A stretch of DNA of 64,000 bases from Lingula anatina. Taxonomy: Eukaryota > Animalia > Brachiopoda. Where the stretch lies: NCBI GenBank assembly GCA_051362555.1, contig CM120646.1:8122001-8186000 (forward strand), read 5' to 3'. Shown here piece after piece: positions 35,494 through 64,000 of this stretch; positions within the stretch are counted from its first letter, which is position 1, and every line of letters starts with the position of its first letter. The position numbers and the translations under genes were made by a program. The notes below the pieces were generated by a model, which searched no databases, was not told the origin of the DNA, and was given only the letters and a program-made list of their open reading frames with translations.

Positions 35494-35709
35494 GACCCCA
35501 TTCCCAGAGATTAGATCGATCTACTTTTAGATCGACCTAACTCCTTGGGGGTTCACACTAAATAGCTGTCAGCCGAGCGGGCACGAAAGTTAATTACCCC
35601 CTTACAGCTTGTAGTAGACGGGACGGACATTTAAGCCGGATTATCTGACAGTAATCTAGTGAGACTCCCCGCGGGGATAGATCGATCTAAAAGCTCTGGG
35701 AATACGCCC
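35494..35709 (-). mobile_element. PIF/Harbinger-type MITE, copy 1
   Basis: Imperfect TIRs (..CCATTCCCAGAG / CTCTGGGAATACG..), TAT on both flanks; inverted homolog of 52972-53185 over its full length. Confidence 0.8.
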
Positions 35710-36131
35710 TATGACATTTGACGTTATTCTGGAGGTAGCGCATGGGTCATTTCAAAATTAGTACAACTATGTGCCCCAGTATGTGCGTGGAAGAAGGAAG
35801 AATAAATGTATTTGAATTATGTGTGGAATATTGACAGGTTCTTTTACTATTAAAGTCTACTTTCTGCAAAATAATAAATAAATAGAATGATACTAATTCA
35901 TCTTCATTAAAGGTGACATTGGTGTTGTGATTGAGGTAAGTGATAATTAGTGGATGGGAAACAAAATATAACTGTAAACAAAAATATTACAAACCGCTAC
36001 TTCGCTTTTGTAACTATTTTTTTTAGTTATTTTACTGCAGTAAAGAGTGGATAAAATAGTTCAAAACGAAGCCCTCATAGTGCTGTTGTTTTTGCGACTT
36101 CAGCTGCTGGGGTTAGGTGAAGGGGCGAGGG

Positions 36132-48019: not shown

Positions 48020-49674
48020 CTTGTTTTATATAAAAACAGTCAGTGTTAAGATCGACGATCTGTAATCGTGCGTGGATTCAAAGTGACGCACATAACAAAA
48101 CTTTTAATAGTTTCTCATACGACAAAAATAAAGTCAACATGCCAAGGGATAAATCGAATCAATGACTCGAAAAAGTTTTGTATCTGAATTGGTTATACTG
48201 TTTGAAACCCTATGGTGGTATTTGGTCGGGTTTGGCAAAAACCTCGACTTTAAGTGCACCTGTAAATGGGAGCATATTTTAGGTCACCACAAATAGCAGA
48301 TTAAAAAAAATCGGTTTAAATGTCCTACACGTCTTTTCGAGTTGATAGGGAGTAATTAACTAATTAAATAACTACTCAAGGAGGCGTGTCAGGCAAGATG
48401 ATTATAGTGTTTGCTTAGTCATAACTTTCAACCTTAATCACTTTTTTTGCTTTGTTTCTGTTATATGTACAAAGTACGGTGACTTGTAGGCCCATGAGGC
48501 CGGGTGATTTGTATATCTATATCACATGGCACGTTAATAAATAAACATTTAATACACTGAATGTATTTTAGTGAGAATACCCCTCAGCATTGGCTCGATT
48601 CAGCTGGTACGATATTTGAATCTAAACGCGGTTCTAAAGCAAATAAATCTAGTTGTGTAAACTACAATTAGACCGGTTGAAGAACAAGTAACTGATCATA
48701 TTTGCCAAGCTTACATGTCCACTAATTAATTCACTAAATTAAATGTTATATTCAGATCAGAATTCCACACCGCCACCAGCGAGATTCTTCGGTCTTTCTC
48801 TCCGCGCCCTATTATACCTGGGAGACCAAGACAGGCAAGAGGTGATGACGTCACGACTAGGGTGGGAAAACGAACAGCAATAATCATAAATAATGAGGAT
48901 GATAATGAAAATTGCATTTAGTTAAAAAAAAATTGTAAATTATTACTTTATTTATTCTTTCCCGCATTTGCCATGATACTATTCTGATGTTATTTTTGTC
49001 AGAAGTTTTTTCCCCGACTTTGTGAATGTTGACTGCCGCCCTGAACCGTAAGTTGTAAAACCATACGTGTATATACAGTGTACATCTGCCTTTTTTTCCA
49101 GCCTGTAGATCAGCAGATAATGTGCCCCCCTGGTTTTGTTCCTGATGCCCAGGACTGCCGCCCCCTTATGTACAATTTCACGGTAGTGCGGTCGACCGTT
49201 CTCTTACGTTTTGAACCATGTGGCTGGGTTCCAACATCCAGAGATGGCTGTAGAGATATCAGACGTGATGTGCGATTGGGAGCTGTACTGAGAGCTGTGC
49301 AGGCACTTATTCATACCTGTAATCTGATGCATGGCGCGGATAACACGTCCATCACCTTTGTCGTACATACAGTGGTCACTGTTCGCGTAAGACTAGCCCA
49401 CTACGAGGAAGTTCGCAAGATTTTTGACCAAGTAAAAGCATGGATGGAAAATGCTCTGCAAAACGTGCAGTTGGAGATATCAGGAGGACCAGTGGGTATA
49501 CGCTTAGGGTCGTTCTCTGCCTGCATGAAGACCGCCGCAAACCACAGCTCCGTTACGCCATTTCATGGGGCTTCCACGCTCTCAACCCCGAGGCATAGCC
49601 GAGGAAATGTACCTGTTGGTATTGCTAGAGTTTGGTTGTTAATGGCGATGGTGGCAGCGGTGTGGAATTTCTAA
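45451..49674 (+). CDS. Secreted/cell-surface somatomedin-B-domain protein with mucin-like repeats (adhesion-GPCR-like ectodomain family), ~750 aa, 3 exons
   Basis: Exon 1 45451-47050 (phase 1 donor G|GTAAGT; in-frame ATG also at 45391), exon 2 48756-48841 (DQNSTPPPARFFGLSLRALLYLGDQDRQE; weaker donor GTGATG), exon 3 49102-49674. Motifs: putative signal peptide, SMB-like CNCDPVCVQYGDCC, FWMVDQCP, PVTDPDTMITFRNKYCATCNG, YKNFHCMVC, CPPGFVPDAQDCRP; hydrophobic C-terminus. Confidence 0.85.
45625..46038 (+). repeat. Coding 45-bp tandem repeat (15 aa, ESPTTEGGMRVNATQ)
   Basis: About six near-perfect units GAGTCGCCCACTACTGAGGGTGGAATGCGTGTGAATGCTACACAA flanked by diverged units (PITEGRIHEGITQD, PIAEGRIHEGISRE, SPTTEGGMHNEVTQ). 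Confidence 0.97.
47619..48017 (+). mobile_element. tRNA-derived SINE with (ATT)n tail in intron 1 of the SMB gene
   Basis: A-box TGGCCTTGTGG, B-box-like GGTTCAAAAAACCC, body GCTTGGCACTCAGCA...TATGCTCCCCAGGGAG resembling conserved metazoan SINE cores (from memory), AATAAA then ~17 ATT units. Confidence 0.8.
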
Positions 49675-52496: not shown

Positions 52497-52971
52497 CACA
52501 TCACCGTGGTCGTAGAACGGATGTCGGATGTTTTAGTCAGATGTTTGCTCAAGCATCTTTTAGGACAAGCCTCGAACCAGCAACTTATTAAGTGGCAAAC
52601 ACTGGATACGTTTGACATTTTACTACAAGGATTATTTTCTTTTCAATAAATTTGCACATTAGTAAGTCCAAACGTATTGAAATGTGTGTGTGAGAGAGAG
52701 AAAGAGATAATTTCGGAGACTGTCAGAAAATATCTCTGGATCCGCCCCTGTTGTAGCCCTACTTCTATGGTTTTTCTCGGGTTTTAAACACAACATCACA
52801 CAAATTGCTGTAAACCGTGTTGAATGATCATATCGCAATCTTAATTGGAAAACGCACTGAACTTGTAAAGTATTCTATATCAAACATTGTTTGTATTTTT
52901 TCTCAAAGCTGCTCAACAATAGCAAAGGATAGTGTCACTCAGTGCAGTTTATTTTTACAGTAAAAGTGTTA

Positions 52972-53185
52972 GGGTCTATTCCCACAACTTTAGATCGATC
53001 TATCACCGCGGGGAGTCTCACTAGATTACTGTCAGATAACCCCCCTTAAGTGTCCGTCCCCGCCTACTACAAGCTGTAAGAGGTAATTAACTTTCGTGTC
53101 CGCCCGGCTGACAGCTATTTAGCGTGAACCCCCAGGGAGTTAGGTCGATCTAAAGTAGGTCGATCTAATCTATGGAAATGGGGTG
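52972..53185 (+). mobile_element. PIF/Harbinger-type MITE, copy 2
   Basis: TTA TSD at 52969-71 and 53186-88; imperfect TIRs GGGTCTATTCCCA / TGGAAATGGGGTG; inverted homolog of 35494-35709. Confidence 0.85.
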
Positions 53186-53331
53186 TTAAATTACACGGTG
53201 TCAAGGTAGGCCCATTCTCATCCCAATTTAGTCCCATCGCATTGAATAATGTTGATATACCAGTATGCACTTCTGATATCGTCTTATATTAACAGTATAT
53301 AAGTTCTTCTAAAACAGAAAAAAAGTTGAAA

Positions 53332-53478
53332 GCAAAATGTGTTGCGGTTGCAAAATGCGGTGCGTCTGCAAAATGCTGTGTTGTTGCAAAATGCGGCTCC
53401 ACTAAAGCTGGTTGCAAAATGCTTATTTCCCTTTTATTTGGTTACAAAATGCGGTTGTTTGCAAAATGCGGCTCTACA
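53332..53478. repeat. Cluster of about 7 TTGCAAAATGCGG-like motifs, probable DNA transposon terminus
   Basis: (G/A)CAAAATG recurs at ~53332, 53350, 53368, 53386, 53414, 53444, 53461 and the array ends in ...GCTCTACA; no partner end found. Confidence 0.5.
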
Positions 53479-54023
53479 TCGTTTCATCTTTGAAAAAATT
53501 AATATGACCATTTTACCGGCAACTATGTATTTCTGTTTTCATGAATTAGTAAATCCGATCCAAGAAAAAACAAATCTTTCAGTCTTGAAAAAACTCCAGT
53601 AGTAATTATTTTACACAATCGTTTAAAGCCAGTCATGAAAAAAAACACAAATAGTAATTATTTTTATTACAGGTACAATAAGATTAAAATTCACGACATT
53701 CACATCACCGCCACATAGATGCAGAGTTTCAGGAAGGATGAACCATGCATTTTAAGATTTATCAAAGTAATCATGCAATTTCGGTCAATTTGAAGTCTGT
53801 GTGTGTGAAACATGGATTTGTTGATCTCGAATGCTGGGTCCGCCATTAATTTCACCTATCAAACCCACCCCACCCCCTGTCCTCCTGTGAATAAGTTTAG
53901 TCATATCAAAGCTTAAAATATAATATACACTGTATCAAATAATGATTATCTGTTTTCTTTTGAACCGCTGTTTCCATGAACATTTGATGTCGAAGTTGCC
54001 TGTTTCAAAGTGACTCCAGCGCT

Positions 54024-56369
54024 CTACTGCTTCGTTGGATAGTACTCATCTGGGGCGTAGGGAGAGTACTGAAATAATGGAGGAAAAGATATACAGAGCA
54101 TATGTCCAAGTTCAGAGTAACATAATAGTGATGAAATAACTGCATGTATACCGATGGTCTGATATTATATCTAAGTACCTCTATGCCACACGATCAATGA
54201 ATGGCTGCTTATTGATTCCATTCGTAAACTGGCACCACCAGTATTCAAAATAAGTAGAAAATTAAACGAAAAGATACATTTTTAGCTATGTTTGATAATT
54301 ACGTCATGGACGTAGTGGCGATAGGGAGTCACCCAGACGACCCGTTATGAGTACGTCGATCGCGAACCGCGTGTAGGTACGTATAGAGCACAGTTGGAAA
54401 TGACGTAATTATTAAAGGTGGCTGGAATATAGCGCCGCTAAGGGCTAGAAATGAACGACTCAGATGCCCATCAATGTCTTATGTAAGAACTCAAACAAAC
54501 AAAAAGGAACTACAAACACGAAACACATGTTGTGAAATCACCTACCAAGACCTTCACAGTGAACTGAGCGTGCGGCCCTTCCCTCGTGTTACTGGCTGCC
54601 TTTAGAGCGCCCTCTGGCTTAATGCCGAGATGATGGTCGCTTTCCTCCACCGAGCCAAATGTGTAATAATCGCCATGTTTTCTCACAATTAATTTCGACT
54701 CACATCCTAGCTGTGCACCGGGGGGCTGGGGGAAAGAATCAATTGATTAATTAAACCCAGGGTTATTTCTTATAATTTAAATTTGCTTTTCTTTATTTTC
54801 ACTATAATTATCGTTTTTCTTTCTTTTTCTCTTTTTCTTCTTAATTTTTGTAGAAATGTTGAATATCTTGAATCAACTGAACTTAGAGTTGTGCCATGTA
54901 TTAATAATAATAATAATAGGATCGGAATTTAAGTCTTGGCTATCTCAGTTCAATTGCGATTTTTAACAAGGTTTATTCAAAGAAAAGGGGGCATATCGTT
55001 TCAAGCATTATATGCTCTCCTTCACGAATTAAATGACGATGCAATGCTCTGTATTCTAACAGCCGGTGTGGTCACTTACATAATTAACTATCATAGCTTT
55101 GCCGTCTACTATTACGATATAGTTGTTACAGTTATGAAGTCGGATGACGTCTTTGTCTTCCTTCACCACGGTCCAGTTGGCTGAAATCAATATAGTTAAA
55201 GATGACACTGCGCACTGGGCTAATATAATGGTACATGTAAAAGATGTATGAATAAACATTTCTTATTCTAAATAAATAATGTCTGATGGCTATTTATATA
55301 CGTCTCTGCTTACATATACACCTATATATACCTAATGGGAATTTGATGTTGGAAGTTTGGTTTACGTGTAAACTAAAAGCTGCGGGGATTCAACCTCATG
55401 GCATACGTGATAGAAACCTCGAAATGAAATAATTTAAGATGTAAAAAATCGGATGCTTTTGTTTGTTGGTGCATGATTATGATATGCACATACTTTTTTC
55501 TTCATTGTTAAGGTGTAGAATGGCGGGTTTCAGGTGTCTGCCGCATTTTCACGGTGCGAAAGCTGCACTGTAGGCGTAGAGTATATATAATTATGACTAA
55601 AATGGTAAAAATGTGTCTGCGGACTAGAAACGCGGTATTCAAAATGAAAAAAAAAACAGTTCTAGTGACAGTTTTAAGTAATAACTGTGCCTGTACAGTA
55701 ATATAATGCGGGAAATGGCGCCACGAATCTACGCGGTGCCACGTAAACACGATTCATATATGATTCACATATTTCACGTAAAATCAAGCAGTCCCGTTGA
55801 CCGGTTTAATGATGAAATTTTCACGGCTGCCGAGTGGTATGCCAATTGGTTTATATCCAAGAACTTTAACAGATTAAAAAGCAGAGTAATTCAATAGTAC
55901 AAATAAATGAAACAGAGTTGAGCGAGGACGTCATTTCACGGGGTAGATGGTAGTATTGGCAGCTACTTTGTAGATAACCAGATGAAACGGAACAAAACTG
56001 AAACAAACTAAACAAATAAGTAAAAACCGAAACAAGATTTAAAAGGAAAATGAAACATAGAGTCTGAAGAAAAAAGTAATAATTAAAAAACTAAAAATAT
56101 TTAATACAAATACAGGACATACCATGCTGAAATTGCGCCCCCTCCGGGCCCATGCCGTCAAGCATAAGTTGGCCGTCTGCACCGCGGACTATCTCGAGCG
56201 TCTTGGAGCTAGATTTTGACACGAGCTGGAGAATATTTCCCGTCTTAAATTCTGCCATGTTGACTGTTTTCTCTCCTGTATCCGGTGTATCTTGTGTTTC
56301 TTCGCTACTTTCGTCTCCGCTGTCTGTTTCGACAGGATTTTCTTCTTCAGTAGTCAGTGAAGATCCCAT
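54024..56369 (-). CDS. Beta-trefoil-like (IL-1/FGF/fascin-type fold inferred) protein, paralog B, 190 aa, 4 exons
   Basis: Exons 56369-56123, 55180-55080, 54725-54546, 54068-54024, GT-AG, phases 1-0-0, 573 nt. MGSSLTTEEENPVETDSGDESSEETQDTPDTGEKTVNMAEFKTGNILQLVSKSSSKTLEIVRGADGQLMLDGMGPEGAQFQHANWTVVKEDKDVIRLHNCNNYIVIVDGKAMIVNYPPGAQLGCESKLIVRKHGDYYTFGSVEESDHHLGIKPEGALKAASNTREGPHAQFTVKVLYSPYAPDEYYPTKQ; alternative start 56258. Gene model supported by the paralog; fold is inference. Confidence 0.88.
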
Positions 56370-58305
56370 ATAAGTATCTAAACGCCAAATCAACGGGCGC
56401 TATTTTATAGATGGTTAAGTACGATGAGGCACGCGCTTATGACAAATGCGATTTTCGATATCGATGAGCTCACCTGATGAGTGACTAAGACTGCAGCTGA
56501 CGACACGCAGAATATGGAACCTTCTGGCAAAAGATATGCGGGATTCGTCAACATAAGTTTAATGAAATCACTGAATATTTTATAAATTAAATGTTCGTAT
56601 GCCATGTCCTATGCGACAGCTGATTCTGCATTTTTCATCATGAAATATAGCAATATGGAAAAACGGATTTTTTACTGAATTTTAAAATATGATGAAGTTT
56701 GTACAGTGCACTTCATTTTATATGCTGAACAACCATTTACCCTTAAGCTCATAGCAAATCTTAACAAAAACAAATCAAAACAAAAAAAAAAAAAGAATAA
56801 CAGTTTCAAAATAAATGATGGTAATAATCACATGACCAGTTTCACTTTCACTGAACCATTGCATGCAAAGCATTTCTCTTATATATATTTCTCTGCGTGC
56901 GGCTTCCCGCTTATCCAAAGAATTGAGACTTTTTTGCTTTTCCGTTTGCACTTTTGTTAACATAAAAATATTCACCTTTTCCCAAAACAGCGTGAACAAC
57001 TTTTTAGGCTAAAAGGTGCAAAATGACAACATATAAAACAGTGAGATCCTCAGATTTTTTTCCCTGAACTGTCAACTTTCAAGTAATTTTACGAATTGAT
57101 CAACTGCATTCATGAATCAATTTTTTATTTCAAAACACAGTTCTTGAAATTGTTATTCAGAATATATTGTGATGTCCTTAATGCCTTTTTAGAATTAGAT
57201 GTAAAGTATCCAACTTTTAGTTAAAATATCAAAAATGGCCATAATCCGTGGCATCTGCCATTTGGGCTTTTTCTTACTTGTTTTCAACAATAAACATATA
57301 AATCCCTTAAAAACACTTTATTGGTAAGACTACAGTATATACATTTAAAGAGAAACATGTATAACATCTGACTACCAGTACTTGTATCTGTAGTAGCAAC
57401 AGACAAAAATAACAATAATGTAACAATGCACTGTAGACAGAAACATCCTTCTGACATTTCATTAATAACTGCACTCAAATGACCAATAAATTCGAGGTTT
57501 ATTTGCAATTTTCAAGCAGTGATTGGCATAATAATAAAATCACTCAGAATAGAAACAATCAAATGATCCAAATGTTTACAATCACTACACCCCAGTAGTG
57601 TTACATGCAGCAGTATCCTTAGACCAGCTATAAGATTATGAATTATAACCATTAACAACAGTCATCACTTTCAAGTCAATGCATTTAGATTTAAGAAAAT
57701 CTCCTACCTTCTTTAGCAAAAATAACTTAATTAATTAATTAAACCAAAAAGTAATAAATAAATTTATTAATAAGGATAAAATTGGAAGGCAGTAATTAGT
57801 TATTCAAGCAAATCCTTGTGGTAAAATGTATGATACTTTTATGTACATGCGTTCCAAAGGCATATCCTGCAAAGCTACTTAATATGACAATTTCAGAGCT
57901 TTTAAATAAGACCCCTCAAATTTAAGTATTTGATATTGATATTTTCTTCTAAAATGTCAGGAAGACTAGTTTGTAATGGTAAAAAACACTGAATCCAAGT
58001 GCAGGGTTGGGTCAGGCAACTGTCAGCAGTTGAAAACACATTACATAAATAATTCAGAAAAGAAGAAGTCTATATTCCTTAATACAGAAGTCTTGAATGG
58101 TCAGTGTTCATTGTTCTTTATGCTGAGAATCAGAGTCACTTTTCAAGGACAAACTTCATGTATAACATTTGGTTTAGACCAAAAAACTGTTCACTGACAA
58201 ATCTTTGAGAGTATGAAACTTGATTCTTTCCATCTTGGGCTCACTCATTATTCTGAAAGCAGCAGCAGATCTGGGCAGGATAACATCTTCCATTTTCTTT
58301 CAGTT

Positions 58306-61300
58306 TCACTTTTTCTGTGGTGCTGGTGGATATGGGGAATACTATAACAGAAAAAAAATTAAAAAATGAGTCATGGTTCCTTTATCAAATTAGTTGAATA
58401 ATATTTCAAAACATATCAGATATAAAATACATATTCTAACTACACAAATCACGTAATCTATACATATTAACATCAAAACCTAATAAGATGCTGGATGACA
58501 TTACACCATACACAGAGACATTAATTAAATGTGGATTGTACCAGGAAACAAACAGGAAGGTATAAAACAGTTTTCATTAAAAACGGATGAGATGACAAAA
58601 ACTATTTCTGATGACATCCCTAAAATCGATCTAAGGACAGGTTATATAGAGATGTTCGGAGTGTCATTATTGACATGTGTATCTTAGACAAACATTGGTG
58701 AGAAAGCACTGGCATCTCTGTTAACTCAGGTGAAATACAAGATGCATATGTCTGCACTAATAAATGTTTCATCACTGCAACATATTAAGTGGCTGGCATC
58801 AGTAATAGTCTATACATCTAAAACCTGATTCACAACCAAACAGTCATGCTTTATTACCAACACTTCAGTACAGAATTTACAACTTATCTGAGAATAATAA
58901 ATTTTGTCTTTGTCAGTGCCAAACAAGTGCACAATCAAGACCTTCAAGATGCTAAATATTTAACAGGAATATCTTGATTTTTCTTTCTTTTTGCAAGTTT
59001 TGAAATAATTGAAGTGTGGAGCCTTCAAGGATCTGGTATGCAAGTATTGGTGGAAGGACCATTTAATTTCAGCCTGCGACATTAGTCACTAGTCAGTAAA
59101 ATTTAGTGACCAGTATTTTTGAGTGTGTCTCCATGGATGAAAGAAGATTTGACAAAGTCAAGGTCTAGTCGTTACTAGTACTAATTTTTAATAGGGTTAA
59201 ATGTCTGATCTGATTAAAATTTTATTTGGACAAGTGGACCAGTAGATTTTAGAAAACTGGTTGTTTGAAAAGCCAATAAACTGAAAAGATCACGGCACAG
59301 ACTGTAATTTAATTTTACTTACTTTAAATTTCAATTGCTTTTATTCAGGGGAATGGAATTTGCCTTTTTGCTATGCATTAAAGGCAATTATTTAGTTACT
59401 GTAGTGAGTAAATACTATATAAAGGATGCTTCATGCAATTTCAGGACACTGAAGACAATATAATTATATCCCACCCAGTCCCTTTACAATTTTAGCTCAT
59501 TGACAAACCATACAAGGGCAATTTCACATTAAGCACTCAGAGTTTCATGGGACACTGGGAACTTACCTCTGTACTGCCAGCATAGCCTCTGACATTTCCA
59601 GATACTGGTAAATGTATCTATCAGTGCCTGAGGAATGCTGATAGCAGAGGGGTGGGTTCCCAGTGCCCTCTGAAACTCAGGGTGACAGGAAGAGATGGAG
59701 GGACACAAGCCTTAAACTTCATTATTTAAAAAAGCATAATGACTGAAAGTAATTTCTTCTGTGATATAATATCACCTACATAGTATTAATACAGTATGCC
59801 ATTTTATGCAACAAAACATTAGACTTACAACAAGTCGTACTCCAAACTGTGCATGATCTTCCTTCCCCGTCGCTAAGGCAGACTTCAGTGTGCCATCTGG
59901 CATCACTCCAATGTGGCGGCCAGGTTCGTTGACTGATTCAAATGTCACAAAATTTCCAATCTGGACCACCCTCAGTCTGGTTTCATTGCCAAGGTGGGAA
60001 CCTTGGGGCTTCAAGTACACAAAAAAAGATACCTCATTGATTTAACAAAGTTAAGGTGTAAAAAGTATAATAAAATAGTCTGTACATATTAATTAAACTT
60101 TCATTTTTATCACTAGGATTTATTAGTTGTCATTTTGTTATTTCTTCAAACTTAATTGAATTTTCAACTGGGATCACACCTAACACAATACTAGTGTGCC
60201 TCACTTCACTGTCACACCTAACACAATATGTGATACAATCAGAGCAACTGCTATCACCATAATCCCTATCAAACAATTCCAATAGGTGGATACAGGGGAG
60301 AGTATATCACGAAGACACTTTTTGAGAAACTGGTTCCAGTGTGAAATCCACTGGAGATTCCTTTTTACCCTGCTAAAACATGGGTATTTATTATAAAAAG
60401 GACAAACACATATGGATATCATGGTAGAAAAAAAGTGTCAGTTAAGTACTGGTGACATCTACTCACTCCATGCCAATATCATGTACTTGTATTAGTACTA
60501 GACTTGAGTAGAGGAAATTGCATTCAGTTAACTCCAATTACAAATTTCACGTCCCACAAAGAGGGCTCCTGCAGGTGTAGGCACTGTATCTACAAGGACA
60601 GTTTCCAGGATTTGCCTCAACTATATCTTAACCAAATGACTTATATGTATTGATTTACACCCTTAGCAGGGAAGTTGATGGAATGCACTTCCAATAGAAA
60701 TGTACAATGTAATAGGCCACTGGCTGTCTAACATGCAGAGCTCAATGAAACAATAAATTATAAAATGAAAGAAATGAAACATTAAGTCTGGTAAACTGAA
60801 GATGGAAGTGTCTTGAACATGACATTCAAAACAAAACAAGCAGAATTTAAAGAGATACAAATTGCAGTTAAAACACTACTAAGAGATGAGGTTAAAACAA
60901 AGAAGCCTAGCAGTCATCAATGCAGTGAAATATAACCTATCAAAAATGTAAAATGAGTTAACCACACTGAAAGGAAAATTAGTACATGTAGATCTACAAG
61001 CAAGAAGTATGCCTTGTATTCACAGGTTTACTGGTAGGTGAAATCGACAAAGAAGACAACATGGAGATTTCTTTGTTAACTTTCTGCAAGAGATGAAGAT
61101 GGAGCCATATCCTTGGCATTCTTACTTTGTTTTTACAACTTGTTTTATTGAAGATAACACCAAACTACTCACAAAATTGACCACCATGGTGCTTCCATTG
61201 ATAATACATAGATAATTATAGTTGTTGTGGAGGCGCACTATCCGGTTGCCTTCATTTATTACTGTCCAATGGCCTAAAAACAGAAGAAAAAATAATTAAA

Positions 61301-62009
61301 CAGCACAACATTCATACATGTACATCAGTGATAAAGGAATTCAACATAGATCTCTAAAAAAATTTGCTTAAAATCGAAATCATCCACAAACACTGCTAAA
61401 ATTTAAATTATAAGTGAACCAATCTTCCATACTTTGTTTAAAGGGTCAGTGGGCAGTTTCTTTTATTCCTTATTTAAGATATTTACTTCTTATCTACTGA
61501 AGATACATAGAATTTAATCTGAAGTCTATCATTTATTTGGATAATTATCATTAAAAGCTGCTTCTGCATGTTTTTTTTTTCTAATTTTCATAATATAATC
61601 CATAATATTCTATTATATGTATACATAAAAATTTTACGATGTAGACGACATTACATCATCCTCACCAAGATATACGTAAGTTTTGGAATATTCTTAGGCA
61701 TCTGGTTCAAGTAAAATAAAAATGAACTTTAAAACTGTTGGATGATGAGGCAAAGTGCTTTCAATTGTAACTCTAAACAGACTTTTTAACTCAGTAATAA
61801 AATCAAAAACGGCTATCTGTTAAATAATTTTGGACATTGGATAGTATTCAGAAATGTATTCTTGAGGAGATCTTACTGTTATATCTCTGTGGATCATCTG
61901 GACCTTGGCCATCTACAATAAGTCTGCTGTCAGGTGACATCACAATCTGAAGTGTCCTTCCACTAGCACGAGAAATGAACTGGAGAATGTTGTTTGTTAT
62001 GAAGTTATT
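58306..62009 (-). CDS. Beta-trefoil-like protein, paralog A (start exon not identified)
   Basis: Exons 62009-61877, 61273-61173, 60008-59829, 58341-58306; middle exons 101 and 180 nt as in paralog B. NNFITNNILQFISRASGRTLQIVMSPDSRLIVDGQGPDDPQRYNSHWTVINEGNRIVRLHNNYNYLCIINGSTMVVNFPQGSHLGNETRLRVVQIGNFVTFESVNEPGRHIGVMPDGTLKSALATGKEDHAQFGVRLVYSPYPPAPQKK*. Confidence 0.9.
59535..59683. repeat. Long imperfect inverted repeat (~70-bp arms) in the last intron of paralog A
   Basis: GAGTTTCATGGGACACTGGGAACTTACCTCTG...AGATAC versus GTATCT...CAGAGGGGTGGGTTCCCAGTGCCCTCTGAAACTC, with a loop of about 8 nt. Confidence 0.75.
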
Positions 62010-63512
62010 CTGAAAGGAAAATGTAATAAAAAGTAAATATATTGCATCAAAAGCCTCTAGATTGGTGGTAATTAAGAGCAGGAAAAAAGAAACTAAAAAT
62101 TGGAAAACAGCCTGACTGACTGGTGGGTACAGGTAATCTTGAAGGCATCCAATAACATGACATGTATACATCAGGGATAAAAGAACTCAACATCTCTACC
62201 AAAATTTGCCAAAACAAAGTATACTGTGACACCTACTCAGGCTTTACACTCATGTGCATGTTCCAATACAGCAAATTAAACGAGTGGATGTCACATATAC
62301 ATCTTTGCTGGCATACTTGACTCATATTACAACTATGTATATAAAATTATTTTTCTTGAAAGTCAGGCAATGTTTTATGCATATTTACTAAGTAATACAT
62401 CTGATATAAAATCACTCCTTCATCCTAATATTTGTCTAAGTACCTCTTAATGAGTAAAACAAATTTTAATAAAATAATTACTAAGAAAAAACAATGTTAA
62501 GAAGAAAGAAAAATGATGCTTTGACCTATACTGACGAAATCAATAAAAGACAATAAAACCAATACAACTTCTTAAAGTTTGAAGAACATTTGACAAAAAA
62601 CCAATTTGTCTCTGTTAAAATTCTTTAAAGCCAAACAAGTAACACACTTTAGTGAATGAAACAAATACTGCAGAACAGACATTTTTATTTTTATCAGTAT
62701 GTTACATTAACACTAAAGTCCTAAGTGAAGTACCAGTAAAATTGAAGAAAAACTTTTTTTGTGATTTTTGTGGATTTTTGTGAATTTGCCACAGTCACTG
62801 TCAGTTAGTCACTAGTGTTAGTACAGTGTTAGATCATAGTTATGAAGGGCCACTCAGCTAAACAGTTTTACAATTAGGTACTGACTGTGACATATGATGA
62901 GAAGGGAGGATTGGAGTGTTCAGTGGTCACAGGGAAAAATCAAGGGAAAGAGACGCAGAGGAAGACTAAATGTCAAGAGTTTAGGTTTATGGATGGGCAT
63001 GTCCAGTGTAACAATTCTGAGATCATGCAAAAAGAGTTGTTGAGGTCTATGACAGTCAATGTCCTGCAAGTGGAATATACTTAAAAAGAGGGAGACTGGC
63101 TCTTTCATGATAGTTCATTAACAGCAATTGGGAAAAAGCATGTCATATGAATTATGATATTTGTTCATTAAATTTATAAAATATATACCTGTATTGAAAA
63201 AAAGTTTTGATTTTCATGTTTCAAGTCAAAATATCTTACTGCACTCTATTTTCTTAAAAAAGCTAAGCCTAGTGAAAATTAAGCAGTATTTACTATGTAT
63301 GTAATTGTACCTGCTGAAAGTATTTTGGTATGCAAAAACAAGGTATACATTATTTTGACATTTTATTTACAAACATTGGAAAAGAGCGCATACCACATTA
63401 ATTATTCATTTCATTTATATATTTCTTTGCCAGCTCCAAGTCTAATTTTCTGTCTAAATATAATAAATATATTAATCTATTCAGTATATATAGCCAAAAG
63501 CCCCAGGCAAAA

Positions 63513-64000
63513 TTATGCAGTTTTTGATTTATCCTGCTGAAAATATTTCACTACACTTTTTATTAGTTTCCATGACAATACTGCAAGAAGTGCATAAGCA
63601 GAAATGAGCAAACATTTAACTGCCACTTTGTAAGCAATGACATCCAGTAGAAAATACTGATACCAGTTTAAACTATAAGCTGCTTGGGAATGAAAGTGAA
63701 GAGGTCCATTGTGACGCATGGTGTAGTTGAGCCAAAATAAGAGTTCTTCTTGTCCTGACATAGGAGTGTCTTGCAAAATTAGTGAAATCTTCTCTGCATT
63801 TTCTTTGAAAGATTTTTCATTCATGACCTTTACAATGGCATTTTCTAACTTAGTTTCAGTAAGGGTTAGATAATCCAGGGAAACCCCAACTTTAACACGA
63901 TCTGTTAATTTTCTGGCATTTTGGGGCTGATCCCAAAAGAGAGGAATGGCCACCACAGGCACTGCATGGTACAGGGTCTCCCACATGCTGCTTACTCCAC
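63513..64000 (-). CDS. UDP-glucuronosyl/UDP-glycosyltransferase (UGT family), 3' portion; continues beyond window
   Basis: UGT signature end GVSSMWETLYHAVPVVAIPLFWDQPQNA; LLFWLNYTMRHNGPLHF; LNWYQYFLLDV; C-terminal transmembrane helix and KSKTA* di-lysine-type ER retrieval tail. Confidence 0.95.
   Translation of the reverse strand, partial: GVSSMWETLYHAVPVVAIPLFWDQPQNARKLTDRVKVGVSLDYLTLTETKLENAIVKVMNEKSFKENAEKISLILQDTPMSGQEELLFWLNYTMRHNGPLHFHSQAAYSLNWYQYFLLDVIAYKVAVKCLLISAYALLAVLSWKLIKSVVKYFQQDKSKTA

What the first reader, a model, noticed from the sequence alone, without database searches (positions are those of the whole stretch)
54024..62009. Tandem pair of beta-trefoil genes with IL-1/FGF-like architecture: candidate invertebrate cytokine locus
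Seen: two minus-strand paralogs, fragmented in the ORF track, about 40-45% identical by eye, with identical internal exon sizes (101 and 180 nt) and a ~140-aa domain of short beta-strand-like segments. Paralog B has no signal peptide; the N-terminus of paralog A was not found. The domain is cut by a phase-1 then a phase-0 intron. Paralog A has FESVNEPGRHIGV, which fits the first part of the IL-1 family signature (F-x-S-[ASLV]-x2-P-x2-aromatic/aliphatic-[LI]; IL-1beta FESAQFPNWYIS) but with H and G at two constrained positions. HIGVMPDGTLK...HAQF also resembles the last FGF hairpin. Established (from memory): vertebrate IL-1 and FGF core domains are beta-trefoils split by phase-1 then phase-0 introns, and the FGF middle exon is ~104 nt. 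Inference: these may be IL-1/FGF-lineage cytokine-like proteins rather than ricin or fascin repeats. I recall structure-based reports of invertebrate IL-1-like proteins, so novelty needs a literature check.
Basis: partly seen in the sequence, partly recalled or inferred. Interest (0 to 1): 0.85.

Follow-up and report, generated by a model that had tools for sequence, protein, structure and literature searches.

The report
Leaderless FGF-like gene pair, not IL-1
Two neighbouring, spliced and expressed brachiopod genes encode proteins predicted to fold like fibroblast growth factor (FGF) rather than interleukin-1, with no apparent secretion signal and without two residues recalled as FGF receptor contacts, so they likely act inside the cell at membranes, as members of an old FGF-like family rather than as invertebrate IL-1 cytokines.

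Summary
Two minus-strand paralogs share 67 of 149 aligned residues and have 101- and 180-nt exons; RNA reads confirm all six introns. They are Lingula anatina LOC106173169 (A) and LOC106173136 (B). The IL-1 reading fails. In a wide structural search of the confident model of A, FGFs take ranks 1-9 (best Z 19.1); IL-1beta, IL-1alpha and IL-33 rank 41-47 (Z about 14), below fascin and lectins. The two published Lingula IL-1anc genes are other, PDZ-bearing loci. The 'FES' motif aligns with the general trefoil strand-9 motif of FGFs. They are not canonical FGFs either: 0 of 79 family members keep the FGF Glu or Asn recalled as receptor contacts, and the basic heparin patch is reduced. The family is 46-61% conserved across molluscs and annelids, and reaches rotifers, amphioxus, a brittle star, a sponge, an amoebozoan and a metamonad. 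It typically carries a Pro/Tyr-rich PPxY tail and an amphipathic helix before the trefoil; A has two expressed versions of that helix. Best reading: cytosolic membrane-associated FGF-like adaptors, probably the published 'FGF-like' class (paper not readable here). The function is inferred, not shown.

The parts
61877..62009 (-). Paralog A (LOC106173169), first trefoil exon (strands 1-3), followed by a phase-1 intron. Upstream exons with the Pro-rich tail and two alternative amphipathic-helix segments lie beyond the window end
61173..61273 (-). Paralog A, 101-nt exon (strands 4-7), followed by a phase-0 intron
59829..60008 (-). Paralog A, 180-nt exon (strands 8-12, contains FES)
58306..58341 (-). 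Paralog A, last coding exon with stop codon
57212..58305 (-). Paralog A 3' UTR (approximate lower end, from read depth)
   Evidence: AATAAA/ATTAAA sites
56123..56476 (-). Paralog B (LOC106173136) first exon: reads start at about 56425-56476. In-frame ATG at 56369 (37-residue acidic extension that begins Met-Gly) and ATG at 56258 (start of the trefoil, A at -3); strands 1-3
55080..55180 (-). Paralog B, 101-nt exon
54546..54725 (-). Paralog B, 180-nt exon (FGS in place of FES)
54024..54068 (-). Paralog B, last coding exon with stop codon
53670..54023 (-). Paralog B 3' UTR; read ends cluster at 53670-53694, with an A(A/T)TAAA hexamer at 53668

Best explanation
These are two spliced, expressed paralogs whose products are predicted to be FGF-like beta-trefoils and likely act as cytosolic, membrane-associated adaptor proteins rather than secreted cytokines. 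SHOWN: gene structure, splicing, expression, two alternative helix segments in A, and the family's range. PREDICTED: the FGF-type fold; no signal peptide (crude hydropathy test); absence of two residues recalled as FGF-receptor contacts and most of the basic heparin patch. INFERRED mechanism, in three steps. (1) The amphipathic helix just before the trefoil would dock A on a lipid surface, and the two alternative versions would tune that docking. (2) The Pro/Tyr-rich PPxY/LPxY tail would recruit WW-domain or similar proline-binding partners such as NEDD4-type ligases or trafficking factors (established for such motifs; recalled). (3) The conserved trefoil would bind a conserved intracellular partner. 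B has lost the tail and the helix and evolves faster. It may use a Met-Gly N-terminus (possible myristoylation) as a substitute anchor, and its expression varies strongly between samples.
For: Fold: the 43 Foldseek PDB rows shown (ranks 1-50) are all FGFs or designed symmetric trefoils. VIA second look: FGF18 Z 19.2, rmsd 1.5 A over 122 residues. Wide search of 48,161 chains: FGFs at ranks 1-9 (Z 16.6-19.1), fascin Z 16.3 (rmsd 1.8, 121 aligned), IL-1beta Z 14.0 (rmsd 2.6, 130), IL-1alpha and IL-33 Z 13.8. The Atlas model of B is nearest to an FGF17 cluster (TM 0.81), then to a chordate PLAT+FGF cluster (TM 0.77). Sequence: best natural PDB hits of the 79-sequence profile are FGF18 (E 5.6e-7), FGF8b (2.6e-4) and FGF13 (0.004). 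15 of 36 relatives scanned match Pfam FGF at E<=0.01, 8 above the curated cut-off; none match Pfam IL1. Not a ligand: HMMER alignments put the FGF Glu of strand 8 against family Leu/Val and the FGF2 Asn of strand 9 against Val/Ile; 0 of 79 have E/Q or N there, and 4 of 79 have Tyr at the strand-1 position. The strand 10-12 loop has a median of 2 Lys+Arg (A 2, B 3) against 7 in the aligned FGF18 stretch. N-terminus: 0 of 79 reach mean hydropathy 1.8 in the first 35 residues; 58 of 79 have an 18-mer with hydrophobic moment >=0.45; 48 of the 70 testable rows beat shuffles at p<=0.05; 36 of 79 have PPxY/LPxY. Range: 46-61% identity across molluscs and an annelid; named relatives in rotifers, amphioxus, a brittle star, a sponge, an amoebozoan and a metamonad. 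Sponge FGFR-type kinases lack Ig domains (PMC8224027 section 4.3), so the domain likely predates FGFR signalling.
Against: No localisation, lipid-binding or partner data exist; the mechanism rests on sequence anatomy. A and B themselves have no Pfam match. In the 18 closest members, weak ricin-B matches (12 members, best E 0.0007) outnumber FGF matches (5) and fascin matches (6). Language-model features point to ricin and fascin clusters at 0.90-0.91. The helix region has pLDDT below 50. The helix shuffle control used only the last 45 N-terminal residues while the observed window scanned the whole N-terminus, and the 79 rows include near-duplicates; no composition control was run for PPxY. Leaderless FGF1/2 and IL-1 are exported without a signal peptide (established knowledge), so lacking one does not prove an intracellular role. 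The roles of the FGF Tyr, Glu and Asn residues are recalled; two paper searches did not retrieve a source.
Confidence: 0.55

Rival explanations
1. Leaderless extracellular signal (FGF1/2-like or alarmin-like). The protein is stored in the cytosol, docks on the inner membrane by its helix, is released unconventionally or on damage, and acts on a receptor other than a canonical FGFR. B's acidic extension would be a caspase-removed pro-piece.
For: FGF fold; no signal peptide. B's extension has several Asp-ending tetrapeptides that resemble caspase sites (seen in the sequence; consensus recalled). B depth is about 200 per strand in runs X7-X9 but 0-2 in X1, X2, X4 and X5.
Against: Residues recalled as FGFR contacts are absent in 79 of 79 rows, and the heparin patch is reduced. 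Relatives occur in a sponge and in protists as tandem trefoils. Cross-phylum identity is 46-61%, whereas invertebrate IL-1s could not be found by sequence at all (PMC13736523). An Asp-rich stretch yields such sites by chance, and it is seen only in B.
Confidence: 0.2
2. Intracellular actin-binding or glycan-binding trefoil (fascin, hisactophilin or ricin-B like) tethered to membranes; B would resemble a myristoylated single trefoil.
For: Fascin Z 16.3 and lectin trefoils Z 14-16.4; hisactophilin at E 0.049; weak ricin-B and fascin Pfam matches; Atlas features; B begins Met-Gly.
Against: FGFs score 2-3 Z units higher than fascin and take ranks 1-9. A and B have a single Trp and no QxW motif (seen in the sequence; motif recalled). 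They are single-domain, not four-domain like fascin. This rival differs from the best explanation only in the ligand of the trefoil.
Confidence: 0.18
3. PDZ-less members of the invertebrate IL-1anc family that act as pro-inflammatory cytokines.
For: FES in A, and F/L-E-S in 45 of 79 family rows; no signal peptide; some IL-1anc proteins lack the PDZ domain; IL-33 is a weak partial profile hit (E 0.014); one amoebozoan relative passes the Pfam IL33 cut-off by summed score; two introns lie inside the trefoil.
Against: IL-1 structures rank 41-47 in the wide search. The full IL-1 signature matches 0 of 79. The listed Lingula IL-1anc genes are LOC106166605 and LOC106154450, both with PDZ, and LOC106173169 is absent from the paper's main text and the 7 supplementary files held. 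The motif is shared with FGFs and designed trefoils.
Confidence: 0.04

Closest known systems
'FGF-like' genes, putative predecessors of bona fide FGFs (Bertrand, Iwema and Escriva 2014, doi 10.1093/molbev/mst222; paper not held; known here from the passage in PMC8224027, and from recall)
   Same: FGF-type domain without the canonical ligand features; present in sponges and bilaterians. I recall a link to RP1, which would fit the chordate PLAT+FGF cluster that ranks second by structure for B.
   Different: Could not check whether these genes or their orthologs are in that paper. Relatives here extend to an amoebozoan and a metamonad. The PPxY tail plus amphipathic helix, and the alternative helix exons, were not found described in my paper searches.
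Vertebrate FGFs (FGF18, FGF8, FGF1/2; intracellular FGF12/13)
   Same: Nearest solved folds (Z 18-19, rmsd 1.4-1.8 A for the best rows); short strands 10-11; introns before strand 4 (phase 1) and after strand 7 (phase 0), as recalled for FGF genes; leaderless like FGF1/2 and FGF11-14.
   Different: 16-20% identity; no conserved Cys-x-Phe-x-Glu (0 of 79); reduced basic patch; Pro-rich tail and amphipathic helix; an extra intron after strand 12.
IL-1anc (PMC13736523; abstract, sections 6, 7 and 20, passages and supplementary Table S2 rows read)
   Same: Invertebrate leaderless beta-trefoils with an F/L-E-S motif in strand 9 and introns inside the trefoil.
   Different: No PDZ domain; different Lingula loci; trefoil closer to FGF by about 5 Z units; highly conserved in sequence.
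Fascin, hisactophilin and ricin-B trefoils
   Same: Same fold class; cytosolic; weak profile matches.
   Different: Lower structural scores than FGFs; single domain; no QxW repeats.

Membership tests
IL-1 / IL-1anc | Trefoil structurally closest to IL-1 family members | tested here: not met
   FGFs ranks 1-9 (Z 16.6-19.1); IL-1beta rank 41 (Z 14.0, rmsd 2.6, 130 aligned), IL-1alpha rank 45, IL-33 rank 47
IL-1 / IL-1anc | N-terminal PDZ domain (most IL-1anc; a subset lacks it) | tested here: not met
   no Pfam family on P0001 or P0036; the N-terminus of A is low-confidence coil and helix
IL-1 / IL-1anc | [F/L]ES motif in strand 9 | tested here: met
   A has FES and 45 of 79 rows have FES or LES, B has FGS; not specific, since it aligns with FGF YRS/LMS
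IL-1 / IL-1anc | Full IL-1 family signature (pattern recalled) | tested here: not met
   0 of 79 match the full pattern, 1 of 79 the short one; A and B do not match
IL-1 / IL-1anc | Conserved phasing of two central trefoil introns | tested here: inconclusive
   phases 1 and 0, before strand 4 and after strand 7; the paper's text gives no phase values, and FGFs are recalled to share them
IL-1 / IL-1anc | Linkage to IL-1R, GCC2, ESD, TRAF3 or EIF2A | tested here: inconclusive
   170 of the window's 201 open frames of 62 aa or more were scanned: only transposase, acyl-CoA dehydrogenase, GPCR and UGT families; short exons would be missed, and the linkage is reported for cnidarians and ambulacrarians
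IL-1 / IL-1anc | Immune induction and caspase processing | not testable with these tools
   RNA runs carry coded labels
Bona fide FGF ligands | FGF-type beta-trefoil | tested here: met
Bona fide FGF ligands | Pfam PF00167 above the curated cut-off | tested here: not met
   no match for A or B; met by 8 of 36 relatives scanned
Bona fide FGF ligands | Conserved Cys and Glu around strand 8, and the Asn and Tyr receptor contacts (roles recalled) | tested here: not met
   0 of 79 with Cys+Glu, 0 with E/Q, 0 with Asn, 4 with Tyr; register from HMMER alignments
Bona fide FGF ligands | Basic heparan-sulfate site between strands 10 and 12 | tested here: not met
   median 2 Lys+Arg, balanced by a median of 2 Asp+Glu, against 7 Lys+Arg in FGF18
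Bona fide FGF ligands | Binds and activates an FGFR | not testable with these tools
   no Lingula FGFR sequence was in hand; no complex job was run
FGF-like genes (Bertrand et al. 2014) | FGF-related domain lacking canonical ligand features | tested here: met
   definition taken second-hand
FGF-like genes (Bertrand et al. 2014) | Presence in sponges, protostomes, invertebrate deuterostomes and choanoflagellates | tested here: inconclusive
   sponge, spiralians, brittle star and amphioxus found; no choanoflagellate among the named hits, but only 22 proteins were looked up for names
FGF-like genes (Bertrand et al. 2014) | Groups with the published FGF-like / RP1 sequences in a tree | not testable with these tools
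   paper not held; a PLAT+FGF chordate cluster is second by structure; a search of longer proteins found nothing, which is weak
Fascin / ricin-B lectin | Best structural neighbour; four tandem trefoils or QxW repeats | tested here: not met
   fascin Z 16.3 at rank 12, behind nine FGFs; single domain with one Trp

The most novel reading that the evidence does not exclude
These genes are living representatives of the pre-signalling FGF: a pan-eukaryotic, cytosolic trefoil that docks on membranes through an amphipathic helix (switchable by alternative exons in A, replaced by a lipid anchor in B). Secreted FGFs would have arisen from it by gaining the receptor-contact Glu/Asn and a heparin patch, and its membrane docking would be the ancestral step behind leaderless FGF2-type export. 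The family profile matches the idealised three-fold symmetric designs better than any natural FGF, as expected of a less-derived trefoil.
Probability: 0.25. Interest if true: 0.75.

Novelty: new member of a known kind. Interest (0 to 1): 0.4.

Why it matters
As an IL-1 candidate it matters little: invertebrate IL-1s, including Lingula's two, are already published and are other genes. It matters as a small, well-expressed, highly conserved and unannotated FGF-like protein family. If these proteins are the intracellular sister group of FGFs, they make the question 'what did the FGF domain do before FGF receptors existed' directly testable. They also warn that F/L-E-S plus intron phase is not enough to call an invertebrate trefoil an IL-1.

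Tried and rejected
No whole genome is held for the window, so no genome-wide search for Ig-TIR receptors or FGFRs was possible. Single-sequence folding failed (pLDDT 41); the 79-sequence alignment fixed it. Pfam gave nothing for A or B. Language-model feature hits were unspecific. The search of longer proteins for an RP1/PLAT fusion found none among 290 candidates, which is weak evidence. No RNA run was listed as an indexed holder; the runs laid came by species label. No earlier scan findings were returned. Nine paper searches were run. None returned a paper that describes these loci or this architecture. The only test by locus id was LOC106173169 in PMC13736523; LOC106173136 was not searched by id, but the two Lingula rows of Table S2 are other loci. 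Bertrand 2014 and the Ornitz/Itoh review are not held, so FGF intron positions and receptor contacts stay recalled; two searches gave no intron phases. P0092 (6179 aa) in the profile search is a spurious short match and fell out of the tree by the coverage filter. The tree is the quick version, unrooted and without FGF sequences, so it cannot order events. No complex prediction was run. The published IL-1anc sequences were not aligned directly against these proteins, so that comparison rests on accessions, domain architecture and solved IL-1 structures.
Full report
OBSERVATION. Reading 52500-64000 on the minus strand and splicing by coordinates gives two paralogs. A has coding exons 62009-61877, 61273-61173 (101 nt), 60008-59829 (180 nt) and 58341-58306. 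B has 56369-56123, 55180-55080 (101 nt), 54725-54546 (180 nt) and 54068-54024. All six introns are GT..AG, with phases 1, 0, 0 in both genes. The proteins share 67 of 149 aligned residues; the local score is 361 against a maximum of 55 in 1000 shuffles. tblastn finds no third copy in the window. RNA reads from seven runs were laid. They join A's three introns in all seven runs, and B's three introns with several hundred reads each in X7, X8 and X9. In the stranded libraries first mates lie on +, as expected for minus-strand RNA.

IDENTITY. A's 180-nt exon is 100% identical to Lingula anatina LOC106173169 (253 aa; isoforms X1 and X2). B matches LOC106173136 (190 aa) with three substitutions. 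Both are 'uncharacterized'. The first 104 residues of A are not encoded in the window. Loose read ends at 62010 and 62012 translate into the ends of the X1 and X2 upstream segments (51 and 11 reads in X5), so both isoforms are made. They differ at 13 positions, all within residues 70-104; I infer mutually exclusive duplicated exons. B's reads start at about 56425-56476 and no upstream joint was listed. Two in-frame ATGs follow: 56369, which gives a Met-Gly start and an acidic 37-residue extension, and 56258, which has A at -3 and starts the trefoil. A is expressed at depths of about 10-50 in all seven runs. B is at about 200 per strand in X7-X9 (one study), about 1 in X5 and about 0 in X1, X2 and X4. 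The samples are coded, so the cause (tissue, stage, treatment or population; many X7-X9 reads are only 90-95% alike) is unknown, and immune induction could not be tested.

FOLD. With a 79-sequence alignment, AlphaFold2 gives A a confident domain: 145 residues at pLDDT >= 90, ten strands of three or more residues plus short strands 10-11, and a low-confidence N-terminus. The introns fall in codon 149, just before strand 4, after residue 182 at the end of strand 7, and after residue 242 in strand 12. Foldseek's listed PDB rows are all FGFs or designed symmetric trefoils, and VIA gives FGF18 Z 19.2, rmsd 1.5 A, 122 residues. The Foldseek-independent search of 48,161 chains ranks FGF18, 10, 8b, 12, 4, 13, 12B, 20 and 9 first (Z 19.1-16.6). 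Then come a Symfoil-type design and a ricin-type haemagglutinin component (16.4), fascin (16.3) and many lectins. IL-1beta (14.0), IL-1alpha and IL-33 (13.8) appear only at ranks 41-47. In the viral library the best hit is an iridovirus FGF, followed by two fascin-like proteins and baculovirus FGFs. The Atlas's own model of B is nearest to an FGF17 cluster (TM 0.81), then to a chordate cluster with PLAT and FGF domains (TM 0.77). By sequence, the family profile's best natural PDB matches are FGF18 (E 5.6e-7), FGF8b and FGF13; symmetric designs score higher still, while IL-33 (0.014, partial) and hisactophilin (0.049) are marginal. Of 36 relatives scanned, 15 match Pfam FGF at E <= 0.01 and 8 pass its cut-off; one passes IL33 by summed score and none match IL1. 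Against this, A and B have no Pfam match themselves. Among the 18 closest members, weak ricin-B matches (12) outnumber fascin (6) and FGF (5), and language-model features point to ricin and fascin clusters.

NOT IL-1. Invertebrate IL-1s are published (PMC13736523; I read the abstract, sections 6, 7 and 20, further passages and rows of supplementary Table S2). They are mostly PDZ plus trefoil and were not found by conventional sequence searches. Lingula's two are LOC106166605 and LOC106154450, both with PDZ. B has FGS, and the recalled full IL-1 signature matches 0 of 79 rows. Intron phase cannot separate IL-1 from FGF if, as I recall, both share these two introns; the 101-nt middle exon is close to the 104 nt recalled for FGF genes. 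Intron positions appear conserved in the family: 61 of 64 short hits among the 150 listed representatives span just one of the three trefoil exons (indirect, sources not checked). No Ig-TIR, FGFR or IL-1anc-type neighbour was detected among 170 of 201 open frames scanned (short exons would be missed).

NOT A CANONICAL FGF EITHER. The alignments place the FGF Glu of strand 8 against family Leu/Val/Ile, and the FGF2 Asn of strand 9 against Val/Ile. No row of 79 has E/Q or N at these positions, none has the Cys-x-Phe-x-Glu pattern, and 4 have Tyr at the strand-1 position. That these are receptor contacts is recalled; two searches found no source. The strand 10-12 loop carries a median of 2 Lys+Arg and 2 Asp+Glu, against 7 Lys+Arg in FGF18.

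FAMILY AND ARCHITECTURE. Twenty relatives are 46-61% identical to A's domain (bivalves, a gastropod, a chiton, an annelid and unnamed sources). The full profile search finds 261 representatives at E <= 0.001. Named ones include rotifers, Branchiostoma, Amphiura, the sponge Sycon (two trefoils), the amoebozoan Planopodium (two) and the metamonad Anaeramoeba (five). A quick, midpoint-drawn tree of 109 domains with at least 105 profile columns shows three groups: one with all named spiralians and both Lingula paralogs (SH-aLRT 96), one with amphioxus and the brittle star (86), and one of tandem-trefoil proteins (92). B's branch is twice A's (0.88 against 0.42); whether A and B are sisters is unresolved. 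In the 79-row set no N-terminus looks like a signal peptide (0 rows at mean hydropathy >= 1.8; crude test). 58 rows have an 18-residue window with hydrophobic moment >= 0.45, mostly just before the trefoil; 48 of 70 testable rows beat shuffles at p <= 0.05 (the control is somewhat lenient and rows are not independent); and 36 have PPxY/LPxY (no composition control). B has neither tail nor helix.

MECHANISM. I commit to a cytosolic membrane adaptor (0.55). The helix would dock the protein on a lipid surface, the Pro/Tyr tail would recruit WW-type or trafficking partners, and the conserved trefoil would bind a conserved intracellular target. A would switch between two helices by splicing; B would use a possible myristoyl anchor, or be a bare trefoil from its second ATG. 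All functional steps are inferred. Rivals are a leaderless extracellular signal (0.2), an actin- or glycan-binding trefoil (0.18) and IL-1anc (0.04).

KNOWN KIND AND NOVELTY. [quoted passage not shown] 2014 among others. That paper is not held, so I cannot say whether these genes' orthologs are in it, and its supplement may bear on novelty. The match in kind is good, and the PLAT+FGF neighbour fits my recollection that it links FGF-like genes to RP1. I file this as a new member of a known kind. The tail-helix-trefoil architecture and the alternative helix exons were not found in my searches. Interest 0.4: real, conserved and uncharacterised, useful for the origin of FGF, but not the invertebrate IL-1 locus that was proposed.

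Noticed in passing
window:63513-63998 (-): Last coding exon of a UDP-glycosyltransferase (Pfam UDPGT E 1e-35). It lies on the same strand between paralog A's trefoil exons and A's upstream exons, so it is likely a gene nested in A's intron; read depth below 1.
   Followed up: partly
upstream of window:62009 (outside the window); P0001 vs P0003 residues 70-104: Two alternative versions of the amphipathic-helix segment of A, both supported by reads; likely mutually exclusive duplicated exons.
   Followed up: partly
window:52950-53200 and 35495-35711: A short repeat of about 200 bp with heavy read pile-up, opposite-strand joints at 52989/53167 and a 90%-identical inverted copy at 35.5 kb; looks like a MITE-type element transcribed from many loci.
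   Followed up: partly
window:54244-54455: Reads pile up inside B's last intron with uniform loose ends on both sides in X7-X9; probably a repeat expressed from another locus.
   Followed up: no
window:9999-11075 (+): Tc1/mariner-type transposase remnant in pieces (HTH_Tnp_Tc3_2 and DDE_3).
   Followed up: no
window:26693-28896 (-): Exons of an acyl-CoA dehydrogenase gene.
   Followed up: no
window:41546-41920 (+): C-terminal part of a rhodopsin-family GPCR.
   Followed up: no
window:45325-47061 and 49045-49674 (+): Large exon for a protein with about eight tandem 17-residue Thr/Glu-rich repeats followed by a Cys-rich region, with no Pfam match at E 0.001; by eye it resembles somatomedin-B-like extracellular regions (recalled).
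   Followed up: no
P0084 / P0172 (Anaeramoeba flamelloides), P0106 (Planopodium), P0086 (Sycon): Non-bilaterian and protist relatives carry two to five tandem FGF-like trefoils; the metamonad protein is named 'fibroblast growth factor 1' by its source and passes Pfam FGF.
   Followed up: partly
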